Shown piece by piece: positions 24,391-45,160 of a stretch of DNA of 64,000 bases; position 1 is the first letter of the stretch; each line of letters starts with the position of its first letter. The notes below the pieces were generated by a model, which worked only from the letters and a program-made list of their open reading frames with translations, made no database searches and was not told where the DNA came from. This DNA comes from the human T2T-CHM13v2.0 reference genome, Homo sapiens: NCBI RefSeq assembly GCF_009914755.1, contig NC_060927.1; one strand, 5' to 3'. The position numbers were made by a program, and so were the translations under genes.

Positions 24391-25315
24391 TATTGCTTGA
24401 GTTTCTGTTATTTGAAAGATTTGAATTTTACAATAAGGAGCCTTCTTGGTAATTAAATAGATAATCTCTTTCCAGGGAACTTTATGCTTTGAAATAATTT
24501 CCTGTGGTTTCTAATCTTTAATTATAGCACTCACCAGATACAATAAATTACAAGGAAAGTCCAAAACATTTTGTTTCTGTAATCTCTTTGGAAACGACAT
24601 CTTAGGTGTATCTCCATTGAGGAAGACAATTTGTTCCAGAAACACATGTGCCATGCATTTGTTTTCAGAAGAAGAAACAGCATAGAAAATATAATTGCAT
24701 GGCTTTATCTCAGAAGCAAAGAATTATAGTACAGAAAAATCATTAAATAACAATTAAAATAGCATCAGTGTGCCAAAAATACACATATATAATTGGCTTC
24801 TGGGTGACTTTGGACTCAGGGATGTAAGGGTAAGGGGTCAAGTTAGTGATGAGAGACTGATATCCCCAGGGATCTCTGTGGACAGAAAGTGAATCTAGGG
24901 CAGGAGGGAAAAAAACCAACTGAAATTAAATGGAAATTAAGTTAGGGTCTTAATTAGAGCTCTGAAATGATTTATTCACAGAATAATTTCATCTTCATAT
25001 AACATTTTGACTCCTATTCCTTGAAATTTAGAAAAGTTCTGTCATATCTTGGCTTTGCTTTTTCTTTAATAAGCAAGCATGTTGGAGATGTGACTTACAG
25101 GTAGTAAGAAATATTTAATAATTTGGGGTGTTGAATACTATCCTTTTCTACCAATTTATTCTAAGTTGCTTTCTATTTTTATATAAAGTGTGTTCTGGAA
25201 CTGTGCTATGGCTTCCTTCTCCTGTCAAATTCCTTTTCCCAACATATTTTTCTCATAACCTAAAATGTTTCTGTAAGCATTAGTTATGCTTGCATCCTCG
25301 TTTATGTTTTTTTTT

Positions 25316-25632
25316 AATTTTATTATTATTATACTTTAAGTTTTAGGGTACATGTGCACAATGTGCAGGTTAGTTACATATGTATACCTGTGCCATGCTG
25401 GTGTGCTGCACCCATTAACTGGTCATTTAGCATTAGGTATATATCTCCTAATGCTATCCCTCCCCCCTCCCCCAACCCCACAACAGTCCCCAGAGAGTGA
25501 TGTTCCCCTTCCTGTGTCCGTGTGTTCTCATGGATGAAACTGGAAATCATCATTCTCAGTAAACTATTGCAAGGACAAAAAATCAAACACCGCATGTTCT
25601 CACTCATAGGTGGGAATTGAACCATGAGAACA
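25316..25632 (-). mobile_element. Short young L1PA 3' end with 5' inversion
   Basis: Antisense 3'UTR 25316-25531, then sense segment 25529-25632; TSD cgtttatgttttttttt at 25299-25315 and 25633-25649. Confidence 0.93.
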
Positions 25633-27233
25633 CGTTTATGTTTTTTTTTTAAAATTACTTTCCCTAGAGCCCCCTTGCCTTTCCTTGTTAGCACACACTA
25701 AACGCTCTAGCCTTAAGGCCTTTAGTAATTGTTGCATTAGGTGGATAGAGTGGCCAAGACACAAAGGAAACAGTTACTTCTCCTCCATCAGGTTGGGTAC
25801 CGTTGTCTCCAAACCCCTCTGGATAGATGGAAGCCCTACTAAAATTCAAACTGCAGGTAGAATTTAGTTTTGAAACACCACTACTTGTACTCCATTATTA
25901 TTTTTAGATTACATCTCTACAACAGTCTTCAATGTTTTGAAAATAGAGGGGAAAAGAGATGGAACTTAGATATGGTTAATATTAAAATTTCTTCAGCGTG
26001 GATTAAATAAACCCTCTCCATTATGTTTCAACTATTTACAAACATCTCTAGGTTTTCGGCAAGTTTTTTTTCAGCCTTGGAATATTCTATTTGCCTACTC
26101 CCCTAATGGCTAGTGGCTAGAAAGGGCTGATCATGACAAGACAATTATCCTACAAATGACATCATTTGAGCAGGTCTCTGTGCACATGAGGAGGAATTAC
26201 CTAAATACAGTGATGTAGCAAGAGTTGCAATTCAATTTTCCTGAGATCTTAACCATTAGAAGCCAAAAAGCCCATCTAATTATAAAAAAAATCAATAAAC
26301 ATTTATGTCAAACTTCAGAAATAAAAAACTACAGGGATATGACTCACTGTAACATAGCCTTTAAATCAAAAGATCTCTAAATACAAGTAAATAGATGAAT
26401 ATTTAATTCAAATCTTATTTAAAATATTACCACTAAACTCTCTTGCATGTTACAAACTTACTTAGAAGTAGGGAAAAAAGCAGAATACAATAAAAGGGGA
26501 ATTTAAGCTAGAATTAGAGTACCTGGGTTACTAATCTACCGTCTGTTAACTAGATGTCTTTGAATACATTGAATTCTTCATCCTCATTTTTTTATCTGTA
26601 AATTGTTGGTAGTAACATCAGACTTATCCGTCAAACTGAATTATTTCAAGGATGAAACTGAGTTCCTTTCAGCCATCTTAGACGCTGTCTTAGAAGCACA
26701 ATTCAGAATAGAGACCACAGGAGAGAACAAGATGGCTTAGTCCAACCTCAATCAAAAGACAAGGAGAACCAAAGGTAATCTGTCCAGCTGAATACAGAAC
26801 CCTATGTCCTCCTAACTTCCACAGGATCTTGTTCTGCCAACGATCTCTTGTCTCCTAAACCTGTAATCTCTCTTCTTTTTCACATGGCTCTTTTATCTAC
26901 AAAAATAAAAATAAAAAAAATAAAAAATAAAAGGCCAAATTACCTACATGCTGAAACAAATGAAACAAGAAAACCTTCCTAAGCATTGCTTTTCCCTTAA
27001 ACTGTCACATTTGTCTTTTTCTCTCCTGTTAAACTTTTAAAAATCCCTACACTTATTCTATCAACTTCCTAATTATTCCCAAACCTAATAATACAAAGGC
27101 ATTTCTGCCCCTTCAATCTACTGAAACCACTTCTGCTAGGTTATCAACTACTTCCTACTTGCAACATTCAAGTGATATTATTCGGACTCAAATGCTTGCA
27201 TTTAACAGTTTACACCTTTCTTTTTCTTTAATC

Positions 27234-36370: not shown

Positions 36371-36802
36371 AATTATGTACTCCAGAAAAATTCAGTAACA
36401 ATCTGTTCCCACACAAATGACACTTCGTTGCCATGGTACTTTTACATGGCTGTTTCCTTGTTCCTAGTTCAAATAATGCTATTTATTCTTCAGGACCCAT
36501 TTCAAACAACATTTCCTCCAAGATAGAGTTCACATATGAACTAAAAGTCAGTCTTACATCGGAGCAATTTGTTTGCATTTGTGGGAATTCTTTTTTTTCT
36601 TCTTCTTCTTTAAAAAAAGAACAGGTTCATTGAAATATATTCCACATGCCATAAAAGTCACTCATTTTATGTGTACAAACCAATGATTTTTAGTAAATTT
36701 ATAGAGTTGTACAGCCATCATATACGTATGTACATAAATAAATAGTTATTTTCTTACGCCCTATTTAACTTACTCTCCCAGTTCTAAAATCTACTTACCT
36801 AA

Positions 36803-40026
<3,224 letters not shown>

Positions 40027-43296: not shown

Positions 43297-43863
43297 AGTG
43301 GAATTGTTTTCTTAATTCCATTTGTTGATTGTTTATTGCTAGTGTATAGAAATACAACTGATTTTTGTATATTGATCTTGTATTCTAAAAACTTGCTCAA
43401 CTTGTTTCTTAGTTCTAATAGTTAATTAATTGATTCCTTAGGGCTTTTTAATACAAGATCATGTCATCTACAAATAGAAATTGTTTTACTTTCTTTCTAA
43501 TCTGGATGCCATTTATCTTTTTTTCTTGTCCAATTGCCCTCACTAGAACCTTTAGTACAAAGTTAAATAGAAATGGGAAGACTAGACATTTTGTCTTGTT
43601 CCTGATCTTAGACATAAAAACGTTGTCTTCCGTTATTATGTGTGATATTAGTTAAGTTTTTCATAAATAAACTTCACAGTTTGAGGAAGTTCCTATTCCT
43701 AGTTTGTTGAGTGTTAGCATGAAAAAGTGTTGAATTTTGTCCAATAGTTTTTAAAAATTTTTTTAGACAATCATGTAGGCTTTGTCCATTTTTTACTTCT
43801 TTAATTTTATTTTTATTGATACACAATAGATGTACACTTTTTAGGTACATGCAATAATTTAAT

Positions 43864-43951
43864 GCCCCTCACTATAAATTCGGAGCTGCCTCCTCGCCGA
43901 TGATTCCAGCGCCTGACAGCCAGGACCCCAGGCAGCAGCGAGTGACAGGAC
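43864..43951 (+). repeat. Duplicated copy of the AGTR1 core promoter/TSS (88 bp, donor 44897-44984)
   Basis: 87/88 identical to the donor; flanked by a 30-bp direct repeat at 43836-43865 and 43950-43979. Confidence 0.97.
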
Positions 43952-44830
43952 TTTTTAGGTACATGCAATAATTTAATGCATTCATATAAAGATCAAATCA
44001 GTGCAATTGGCATATCCATCACCTTAAATATTTGTCTTTTCTTCATGCTAGAAACATTCAAGTTATTTTCTCCTAGCTACTCTGAAATATACAATAGATT
44101 ACTGTAAACTACAGTCACCCTACTCACCTATCAAACATTAATTGATTTTTGGTAAACTAATCTAATCTTGCTTTCTGGCATCAACCTCACTTGACCATGG
44201 TGTATAGTCCCTTTCATATGTTATTGGATGCAATTTGCCTACATTTTGTTGAGAATTTTTATCTATACTCTTAAGAAATATTGATCTGTAGTCTCGTGAT
44301 GTCTTTATCTGGTTTTGTTATCAGGGTGATACTGGCCTCATAGCATGAGTTGGGAGATCATCCTTACTCTTCTATTTTTTGGAAGAGTTTGTGAAGAATT
44401 GATATTATTTCTTCTTTAAATATTTATTGGGTTTTTAAAATACATTTTTAAAATGCAACTTGGGTAGCATGTCCAATAGGAACAAATGAGTGTCCACCCT
44501 TGAATTTCATAACCCTGGAATTAATCCATGTAATCTATGATCCACAACTGTATTACCAAAGTTCGAGTTACTCATAGGAAAGAGAAAGAAGTTCTCTAAT
44601 TCGTCCTTAAAAGTTTTCCAAGTTCAGAAAAAAAAAATGTTGAAGAACACGAATCTCCGCAGGAAATGATACTCCTGTACCCCCAGCTCGCTCTCCCTCA
44701 CGACCCCTCGCTAGGCGGGGTTCGGGACCCCGTGAACGCTGATCTGATAGTTGACACGGGACGACTGTGGCATCATCCTTGCTGCCGTCAGTATCCCGAG
44801 AGGGAGGAGGTTGGGCCGGGAGGGTCTCCC

Positions 44831-44911
44831 GGGGCGGGGCGGAGGAGGAGGGAATGCAAAACAGAGCCTCGTCCCCGGAACCCAAGAAGCAGCAACGCCC
44901 CTCACTATAAA
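44831..44911 (+). promoter_or_regulatory. AGTR1: Core promoter: tandem GC boxes (ggggcggggcgg, 44831-44842) and TATAAA (44906-44911)
   Basis: Consensus Sp1 and TATA motifs, with the TATA about 30 bp before the recalled mRNA 5' end. Confidence 0.85.
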
Positions 44912-44935
44912 TTCGGAGCTGCCTCCTCGCCAATG

Positions 44936-45160
44936 ATTCCAGCGCCTGACAGCCAGGACCCCAGGCAGCAGCGAGTGACAGGACGTCTGGACCGGCGCGC
45001 CGCTAGCAGCTCTGCCGGGCCGCGGCGGTGATCGATGGGGAGCGGCTGGAGCGGACCCAGCGAGTGAGGGCGCACAGCCGGGACGCCGAGGCGGCGGGCG
45101 GGAGACCCGCACCAGCGCAGCCGGCCCTCGGCGGGACGTGACGCAGCGCCCGGGGCGCGG
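44936..45160 (+). other. AGTR1: AGTR1 exon 1 (5' UTR); start approximate
   Basis: Matches the recalled AGTR1 mRNA leader; strong donor CGG|GTGAGT at 45161. Confidence 0.9.

What the first reader, a model, noticed from the sequence alone, without database searches (positions are those of the whole stretch)
43836..44984. A second copy of the AGTR1 TATA box/TSS pasted 1033 bp upstream ('shadow core promoter')
Seen: 43864-43951 matches 44897-44984 at 87/88 positions in the same orientation. It includes TATAAA (43873-43878) and the first bases of exon 1. It lies in an old L1 3' fragment between two perfect 30-bp direct repeats (actttttaggtacatgcaataatttaatgc, 43836-43865 and 43950-43979), a net 114-bp insertion. 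Both junctions show 2-bp microhomology with the donor (GC left, AC right). It has no poly-A and includes sequence upstream of the TSS, so it is not a retrocopy of the normal mRNA. Inference: a recent DNA-templated insertion (template switch, MMBIR or Pol-theta-like) that could act as an alternative TSS, a TBP decoy or a source of transcriptional interference on a blood-pressure gene. It lacks the GC boxes, so it may be inert. I do not know whether it has been described.
Basis: partly seen in the sequence, partly recalled or inferred. Interest (0 to 1): 0.8.

Follow-up and report, generated by a model that had tools for sequence, protein, structure and literature searches.

The report
Copied AGTR1 core promoter piece upstream
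An 84-base piece of the AGTR1 core promoter (TATA box and start site) was copied into an old L1 repeat about 1 kb upstream, most likely as a scar of DNA repair or replication, and nothing yet shows that it does anything.

Summary
Bases 43864-43951 repeat 44897-44984 (AGTR1 -39 to +49) at 87 of 88 positions. Two perfect 30-bp direct repeats flank the copy, so the net insertion is 114 bp. The T2T genome holds only these two copies of the promoter piece.

The acceptor is the antisense 3'UTR of an L1, nested in an older antisense L1 ORF2. Of 28 paralogous L1 copies, 24 carry the 30-mer once, 4 have no ungapped match and 0 carry it twice. This defines an empty site.

There is no poly-A and no L1 endonuclease site. 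Each junction has 2 bp of microhomology, and the donor lies 1033 bp away on the same strand. The best reading is a one-step, DNA-templated insertion primed by microhomology: either two template switches, or copying repair at a break with 30-nt overhangs. An RNA-templated patch is not excluded.

The age is poorly bounded, at roughly 0.2-40 My. Function is untested. The copy lacks the GC boxes, and the supplied RefSeq table lists no upstream start.

One practical consequence follows. 5' tags of 49 nt or less from the two start sites are identical, so short-read data cannot tell the sites apart. I found no description in print. This is a new member of a known kind, of modest interest.

The parts
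43836..43865 (+). Left copy of the 30-bp flanking (target-site-like) duplication. Its last 2 bases (GC) are also the left microhomology with the donor.
   Evidence: 30 of 30 identical to 43950-43979, with 0.00 expected by chance.
43866..43949 (+). The 84-bp insert that can only come from the donor. It copies AGTR1 -37..+47 (donor 44899-44982) in the same orientation. 61.9% GC with 5 CpG, inside 28-32% GC L1 sequence.
43873..43878 (+). TATAAA of the copy. By the native spacing, the start site would fall near 43903.
   Evidence: The start position is inferred from the native spacing of TATA at 44906 and TSS at 44936.
43899..43899 (+). The only difference between copy and donor. The copy has G, within a CpG (CCGAT). 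The donor has A at 44932 (-4), so the native promoter reads CCAAT.
43950..43979 (+). Right copy of the 30-bp duplication. Its first 2 bases (AC) are also the right microhomology with the donor.
44897..44984 (+). Donor: the native AGTR1 core promoter from -39 to +49, with TATAAA at 44906-44911 and the exon 1 start at 44936. It is intact.
   Evidence: plus the supplied annotation for the exon 1 start.
43781..44150 (-). Acceptor: a 5'-truncated L1 3'UTR on the minus strand (ends approximate), with a T-rich tract on its left. The insertion lies in it.
   Evidence: 6255 first-look candidates genome-wide. The 40 scored comprise the window itself, 38 copies at 80-88% over window 43950-44150, and L014 at 76% over window 44135-44400. 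In paralog L005 the ORF2p C-terminus (residues 1193-1274 of 1275, E 3e-22) lies about 140 bp beyond the homology on the opposite strand. L016 carries ORF2p residues 962-1067.
43451..43651 (-). Older antisense L1 ORF2 (reverse-transcriptase domain) into which the L1 3'UTR fragment is nested. It continues at about 44141-44440.
   Evidence: The translation matches L1 ORF2p residues 651-707, E 2.5e-10. For 44141-44440 the assignment rests on my reading of the translation against a recalled ORF2 sequence. Pfam gave 0 families for both short pieces.

Best explanation
A single mutational event copied 84-88 bp of the AGTR1 core promoter (-39 to +49) from the DNA 1033 bp downstream. It pasted the copy, in the same orientation, into the 3'UTR of an antisense L1 and duplicated 30 bp of the acceptor on both sides.

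The likely course is as follows. A 3' end stopping at ...TAATGC (43865) left its template. It re-annealed through 2 bases (GC; 4 of 5 as AAnGC) on the promoter and was extended to ...CAGGAC (44984). It then returned through 2 bases (AC) to a point 30 nt behind where it had left.

Two mechanisms give exactly this product. One is two template switches at a stalled fork (FoSTeS/MMBIR type). The other is synthesis-dependent repair of a break with 30-nt single-stranded overhangs. The sequence cannot tell them apart.

Shown: the structure, the empty site in the paralogs, the intact donor, and the absence of L1 hallmarks. Inferred: the template was DNA, there was one event, and the enzymes involved.

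The copy carries TATA and start-site sequence but none of the upstream GC boxes. It is most likely a neutral scar with little or no promoter activity.
For: - **Structure and uniqueness:**
- **Empty site:** in an ungapped scan of 28 paralogous L1 3'UTRs, 24 have one 30-mer-like site, 4 have none (indels) and 0 have two. The window has two perfect ones. In 6 of the 28 (L004, L015, L023, L027, L029, L032), BLAST aligns one paralog segment to both window copies. Alignment.
- **Later than the L1:** the two 30-mers are 30 of 30 identical to each other but only 47-80% identical to the paralogs (mean 69.6%).
- **No L1 hallmarks:** there is no poly-A, and neither junction reads TTTT/A. The criteria are from PMC5110952, passages read.
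- **Microhomology:** 2 bp at both junctions. By my own arithmetic (no call), the chance of 2 bp or more is about 0.16 per junction and 0.024 for both.
- **Donor close by:** same strand, 1033 bp away. An insertion from a free RNA or DNA fragment has no reason to land there.
- **Experimental precedent in human cells** (bioRxiv 10.1101/2022.09.30.509517, passages read): inserts at breaks have a median of 120 bp, more than 70% of donors are promoters or transcribed gene bodies, 2-3 nt microhomologies occur, and single-stranded overhangs increase insertions.
Against: - Nothing here separates a DNA template from an RNA template. [quoted passage not shown]
- A 30-bp flank duplication suggests a staggered break rather than a fork. 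The replicative and repair versions remain unresolved.
- From recall, templated insertions by polymerase theta are usually shorter and copied from immediately adjacent sequence.
- DNA folds of the acceptor and donor are no better than shuffles (z -0.55, -1.71, -0.34). No structure-induced stalling is indicated.
- I could not compare GRCh38, other human haplotypes or ape genomes. The single-event reading, the age and fixation are unverified.
- 'Inert' is a prior, not a result. A TATA box with correct spacing to start-site sequence sits 1 kb from the native activator sites.
Confidence: 0.6

Rival explanations
1. RNA-templated patch. A short transcript crossing the start site was reverse-transcribed and used to repair a break. 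The transcript could be sense RNA initiated upstream of -39 or an antisense RNA. The reverse transcriptase would be L1 ORF2p acting without its endonuclease, as proposed for class 2 templated sequence insertions.
For: Class 2 insertions show microhomology and no poly-A, and are proposed to be RNA-derived (PMC5110952, passages). Core promoters can be transcribed and retrotransposed because start sites are dispersed (PMC2386082, abstract only). Transcription and RNA-DNA hybrids promote promoter-derived insertions. A nascent RNA is tethered near its gene, which could explain the 1-kb distance.
Against: The copy starts 39 bp upstream of the only start annotated in the supplied RefSeq table. It ends after 49 nt of a 225-nt exon, so it matches neither end of the known mRNA. 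There is no poly-A and no TTTT/A site. Class 2 events are defined as lacking a target-site duplication, whereas this one has 30 bp. No upstream or antisense AGTR1 transcript was found in print.
Confidence: 0.17
2. Capture by ligation, or a two-step origin. In one version, a physical double-stranded fragment of the promoter was ligated into a staggered break whose 30-nt overhangs had been filled in. In the other, a 30-bp tandem duplication arose first and the fragment later landed exactly at its junction.
For: DNA fragments can be captured at breaks with microhomology (PMC5110952, introduction passage). Filling in 5' overhangs gives a flank duplication.
Against: The donor is intact, so any fragment must itself have been a copy. 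A two-step origin needs the insert to hit the exact unit boundary. The two 30-mers show no divergence that would suggest separate ages (30 of 30), although this test has little power.
Confidence: 0.13
3. The copy is a working upstream start site or an interfering element for AGTR1. This is a functional reading and is compatible with any of the origins above.
For: TATAAA is at 43873 with the native 30-bp spacing to identical start-site sequence. There is no AATAAA or ATTAAA and no GTRAGT between 43903 and 44935. A transcript started there would be expected to run into the native promoter and exon 1.
Against: The copy lacks everything upstream of -39, including the GC boxes at 44820-44850. It sits in AT-rich L1 sequence. 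The supplied RefSeq table shows all listed AGTR1 transcripts starting at 44936 and no functional element. A read-through 5'UTR would gain 1033 nt and 17 ATGs. No paper on an upstream AGTR1 start was found.
Confidence: 0.1
4. Assembly artefact in T2T-CHM13.
For: None from these calls. It is listed only because no reads or second assembly could be consulted.
Against: The insertion is clean, with perfect 30-bp flank repeats, microhomologies and one CpG-type difference from the donor. That is the signature of a biological event and is not a typical long-read assembly error (inference).
Confidence: 0.02

Closest known systems
Microhomology-mediated template switching (FoSTeS/MMBIR) and small dispersed duplications among complex structural variants
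   Same: Short microhomology at each junction, a nearby donor in cis that stays intact, direct orientation, and an insertion combined with duplication of acceptor sequence.
   Different: The event is very small (84 bp plus 30 bp) and has only two switches. Replicative origin cannot be shown. The mechanism is named from recall and from its mention in the passages. For dispersed duplications I saw only the search listing and abstracts.
Templated insertions at double-strand breaks in human cells (Indel-Seq study, bioRxiv 10.1101/2022.09.30.509517)
   Same: Similar insert size (their median is 120 bp). Their donors are mostly promoters or transcribed regions. They see 2-3 nt microhomology, and single-stranded overhangs at the acceptor favour insertion.
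   Different: Their events are somatic and experimentally induced in U2OS cells, and many donors lie next to induced breaks. Ours is in a germline-transmitted assembly, and no break or transcription state is known.
Templated sequence insertion polymorphisms, classes 1 and 2 (PMC5110952)
   Same: A short stretch templated from elsewhere in the genome. It shares a flank duplication with class 1. It shares microhomology and the lack of poly-A with class 2.
   Different: It fits neither class. It lacks the poly-A tail, poly-A signal and TTTT/A site of class 1, and it has the duplication that class 2 lacks. The donor is 1 kb away rather than distant. AGTR1 is not mentioned in the main text of that paper (0 occurrences).
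Retrotransposed core promoters (Okamura and Nakai 2008, PMC2386082)
   Same: A core promoter sequence ends up at a second locus, where it could act as an alternative promoter (abstract).
   Different: Those are parts of processed retrocopies of whole mRNAs at distant sites. Here there is only an 88-bp piece, with no mRNA body or poly-A, 1 kb from its source.

Membership tests
L1-mediated retrocopy / class 1 templated sequence insertion | Flank (target-site) duplication of at least 5 bp | tested here: met
   30-bp perfect duplication. From recall, this is longer than the usual L1 range.
L1-mediated retrocopy / class 1 templated sequence insertion | Poly-A tract at the 3' end of the insert, downstream of a poly-A signal | tested here: not met
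   The insert ends ...GAGTGACAGG directly at the repeat, and its other end starts CCCTCAC. There is no A or T tract at either end.
L1-mediated retrocopy / class 1 templated sequence insertion | Insertion at a 5'-TTTT/A-3' endonuclease site | tested here: not met
   The inferred nick positions read GATGTAC/ACTTTTT and TTTAATGC/ATTCAT. Neither strand gives TTTT/A at the boundary (criterion).
Class 2 templated sequence insertion (break repair patch) | No flank duplication; microhomology, microdeletion or untemplated bases at the junctions | tested here: not met
   Microhomology is present (2 bp at each junction), but so is a 30-bp duplication, and there is no deletion or filler.
Template-switch insertion (FoSTeS/MMBIR type) | Microhomology at every junction, with the donor intact and nearby | tested here: met
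   GC and AC microhomologies. The donor at 44897-44984 is intact, 1033 bp away on the same strand.
Template-switch insertion (FoSTeS/MMBIR type) | Arises during replication or break-induced replication | not testable with these tools
   The sequence product is identical to that of copying repair at a staggered break.
Functional RNA polymerase II core promoter | TATA box about 30 bp upstream of start-site sequence | tested here: met
   TATAAA at 43873-43878. The sequence identical to the native -3..+49 begins at 43900.
Functional RNA polymerase II core promoter | Proximal activator sites (the GC boxes of the native AGTR1 promoter) | tested here: not met
   The copy begins at -39. The GGGGCGGGGCGG region at 44820-44850 is not copied.
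Functional RNA polymerase II core promoter | Transcripts that start there | not testable with these tools
   The supplied RefSeq table lists none. No expression data were available, and no paper was found.
Segmental duplication | At least 1 kb at 90% identity or more (definition recalled) | tested here: not met
   88-91 bp only.

The most novel reading that the evidence does not exclude
The copy is an ape- or human-lineage insertion that may still vary between people, and it is not silent. In this reading it fires as a weak upstream start, or it loads polymerase that reads through and dampens the native AGTR1 promoter, so carriers and non-carriers would differ in AT1 receptor expression. Its ends (-39 and +49) would mark the stretch of an active promoter that is open or held as an RNA-DNA hybrid in the germline. 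The copy would also be a fossil of the promoter at that time. It keeps a CpG (G at -4) where the present promoter reads CCAAT, which suggests the CCAAT arose after the copying.
Probability: 0.07. Interest if true: 0.7.

Novelty: new member of a known kind. Interest (0 to 1): 0.35.

Why it matters
AGTR1 encodes the receptor blocked by the sartan drugs, and its promoter is heavily studied for variants and methylation. A near-perfect second copy of the TATA-to-+49 segment has three consequences.

1. Short reads cannot be placed. The 52-nt exact run covers -3..+49. CAGE-type 5' tags of 49 nt or less, short ChIP reads, and bisulfite or PCR products confined to the 88 bp could come from either site.
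2. The one difference (G at 43899, A at 44932) can look like an A/G variant at -4 if reads are misplaced. This is inference.
3. It is a clean, datable example of a promoter-derived templated insertion in the germline. Events of this type have been produced experimentally in human cells.

Any effect on blood-pressure biology is speculative.

Tried and rejected
- **Literature on this feature:** five searches found no description. They were AGTR1 with promoter and templated insertion; AGTR1 with TATA box, start site and Sp1; a 21-nt promoter string anywhere in the text (0 papers); AGTR1 with duplication, LINE-1 and core promoter; and AGTR1 with alternative promoter, CAGE and upstream. Subscription papers, including the original AGTR1 promoter papers of the 1990s, and supplements are not covered. 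'Not in print' is therefore limited to these searches.
- **Bacterial-type promoter and terminator scan:** not applicable to a human locus, so disregarded.
- **Tandem repeat finder:** found only a TTTTTA tract at 43790-43817.
- **DNA folding of acceptor and donor:** no fold was better than shuffles. A small hairpin at 43830-43851 spans the left edge of the 30-mer (z -1.71, 15 of 200 shuffles as good), which is not significant.
- **Pfam on two short L1 translations:** 0 families. The PDB sequence search then identified ORF2p.
- **C2 locus where both flanks have homologues (L020 and L039):** I considered it as evidence for one intact L1. I dropped it because the order of the pieces does not fit an intact element.
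- **MAFFT alignment:** it places 26-31 paralog residues under the insert columns. These are the paralogs' own upstream L1 bases, misplaced by the aligner, and not homology to the insert. The empty-site claim therefore rests on the ungapped scan and the BLAST HSPs.
- **17-nt similarity at 43532-43548 (family D3):** taken as chance.
- **L014:** left out of the 28 paralogs because it matches only 44135-44400.
- **Comparison with GRCh38, pangenome or ape assemblies:** not possible with these tools.

Full report
**1. The observation**

The region was read directly and scanned for repeats. Bases 43861-43951 match 44894-44984 at 89 of 91.

The 30-mer at 43836-43865 recurs perfectly at 43950-43979. 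It occurs nowhere else in the window even with 3 mismatches allowed, and 100 shuffles gave 0.00 expected matches. The start-to-start spacing is 114 bp. The event therefore added 84 bp of promoter sequence (43866-43949) plus a second copy of 30 bp of acceptor sequence.

TATAAA lies at 43873 and at 44906. The supplied annotation puts the exon 1 start at 44936, so the copied segment is -39 to +49.

A self-comparison of the whole 64 kb at 93% identity or more returned only one other non-self match, a repeat pair (25315-25633 vs 36800-37107, two rows). A search of the whole assembly found the promoter segment at these two places only (2 candidates, both scored).

**2. What the acceptor is**

The right flank (43950-44400) has thousands of relatives in the genome: 6255 first-look candidates, of which 40 were scored. 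Besides the window itself, 38 match window 43950-44150 at 80-88% identity. The remaining one, L014, matches window 44135-44400 at 76%.

The left flank (43500-43865) matches a different and older repeat at 70-75% over about 43500-43790.

The translation of 43451-43651 on the minus strand matches human L1 ORF2p residues 651-707 (E 2.5e-10). In paralog L005 the last residues of ORF2p (1193-1274 of 1275, E 3e-22) are encoded on the opposite strand about 140 bp beyond the end of the homology. L016 carries ORF2p residues 962-1067.

So 43781-44150 is the antisense 3'UTR of a 5'-truncated L1. It is nested in an older antisense L1 ORF2 that resumes at about 44141. The assignment of 44141-44440 rests on my reading of the translation against a recalled ORF2 sequence, and Pfam found nothing in the two short pieces.

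**3. The empty site**

I compared 28 paralogous L1 3'UTRs (L004-L032 without L014, which matches only 44135-44400).
- In an ungapped scan allowing up to 10 mismatches, 24 of 28 have exactly one 30-mer-like site, 4 of 28 have none because of indels, and 0 of 28 have two. The window has two perfect ones.
- In 6 of the 28, BLAST aligns one paralog segment both to 43781/43810-43863 and to 43950 onward.
- The paralogs run without interruption from the sequence left of the 30-mer to the sequence right of it.

The two window 30-mers are identical to each other but only 47-80% identical to the paralogs (mean 69.6%). The duplication therefore happened long after the L1 had diverged from its relatives, and it accompanied the insert.

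One caution applies to the alignment. MAFFT placed some upstream paralog bases under the insert columns. This is an aligner artefact, not homology to the insert.

**4. How it arose**

The insert has no A or T tract at either end. The inferred nick sites (GATGTAC/ACTTTTT and TTTAATGC/ATTCAT) are not TTTT/A sites. The copy begins 39 bp upstream of the annotated start and stops 49 nt into a 225-nt exon. It is therefore not an L1-mediated retrocopy of the mRNA.

Against the published classes of templated sequence insertion (PMC5110952, passages), it fits neither. Class 1 requires a flank duplication, poly-A and a TTTT/A site. Class 2 has no flank duplication.

Each junction shows 2 bp of microhomology, and the left one reads as 4 of 5 bases with one mismatch. 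By my own arithmetic, the chance of 2 bp or more at both junctions is about 0.024. The donor is intact, on the same strand and only 1033 bp away.

The simplest account is that one 3' end left the acceptor at 43865, primed on the promoter through GC, copied up to 44984, and returned through AC 30 nt behind its point of departure. Two template switches at a fork would give this product. So would copying repair at a break with 30-nt single-stranded overhangs. I cannot separate the two.

An experimental study in human cells supports the plausibility (bioRxiv 10.1101/2022.09.30.509517, passages). It found inserts with a median of 120 bp, more than 70% of donors from promoters and transcribed gene bodies, 2-3 nt microhomologies, and more insertions when the acceptor has single-stranded overhangs. 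That same study implicates transcription and RNA-DNA hybrids at donors.

Core promoters are also known to be retrotransposable (PMC2386082, abstract). An RNA-templated patch therefore remains a real rival, which I put at about 0.17. DNA folds of the acceptor and donor were no better than shuffles.

**5. Age**

There is 1 difference in 118 compared bases (88 + 30), and it lies at a CpG. There are none in the 108 non-CpG columns.

With recalled rates of 0.5-1.0e-9 per site per year, this gives a point estimate of 4-8.5 My and rough bounds of 0.2-40 My. Gene conversion is ignored. The event could be human-specific or shared with other apes, and I could not test which.

The difference is G in the copy (CCGAT) and A in the promoter (CCAAT). 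CpG decay makes a G-to-A change in the promoter the more likely direction, but only an outgroup can decide.

**6. Function**

The copy has the TATA box with native spacing to identical start-site sequence. It lacks everything upstream of -39, including the GC-box region at 44820-44850. It also lies in 28-32% GC L1 sequence.

Between 43903 and 44935 there is no AATAAA or ATTAAA, no GTRAGT, and there are 17 ATGs. Any transcript started there would be expected to read through the native promoter and carry a long 5' leader rich in upstream ATGs.

The supplied RefSeq table has all AGTR1 transcripts starting at 44936 and lists no functional element. I found no paper on an upstream AGTR1 start. I put measurable activity at about 0.1. 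The TBP decoy idea is weak because TATAAA also occurs by chance at 43985 in the adjoining L1.

**7. A practical consequence**

The exact shared runs are 35 nt and 52 nt, and the 52-nt run covers -3 to +49. 5' tags of 49 nt or less from the native start are therefore identical to tags from a start at 43903.

Short ChIP, bisulfite or amplicon reads confined to the 88 bp are ambiguous in the same way. Misplaced reads could mimic an A/G variant at -4. This follows from the sequence, and I have not checked any dataset.

**8. Novelty**

None of the five literature searches found a description of this duplication. They cover open-access texts and bioRxiv only, not the older AGTR1 promoter papers or supplements.

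The kind of event is known: a small templated insertion, or dispersed micro-duplication, with microhomology. This is a new member of that kind, notable mainly for what was copied and where.

Interest is 0.35. The structure is clean and the gene is important, but the mechanism class is established and no function is shown.

Noticed in passing
window 43300-43790 and 44141-44440, minus strand: An old L1 ORF2 reverse-transcriptase region (including an FVDDMILY motif in the translation) is split by the nested L1 3'UTR fragment. There are three layers of insertion within about 1.1 kb, directly upstream of the AGTR1 proximal promoter.
   Followed up: partly
window 25315-25633 vs 36800-37107: The only other non-self match at 93% identity or more in the window. 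It has a 217-bp direct part (93.5%) and an adjoining 105-bp inverted part (94.3%). It is probably a young interspersed repeat with a rearranged copy. The family was not identified.
   Followed up: no
window 44930-44934: The native promoter reads CCAAT at -6..-2, where the upstream copy reads CCGAT. The promoter may have gained this CCAAT by a CpG transition after the copying. The direction is untested.
   Followed up: partly
window 43830-43851: A small imperfect hairpin (ATGTAC...GTACAT) spans the left edge of the duplicated 30-mer. It is not significant against shuffles (z -1.71).
   Followed up: yes
G000 contig 2, loci L020 and L039: Homologues of both window flanks lie about 750 bp apart on the same strand, but in an order that does not fit one intact L1. 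This is probably another nested L1 arrangement.
   Followed up: no
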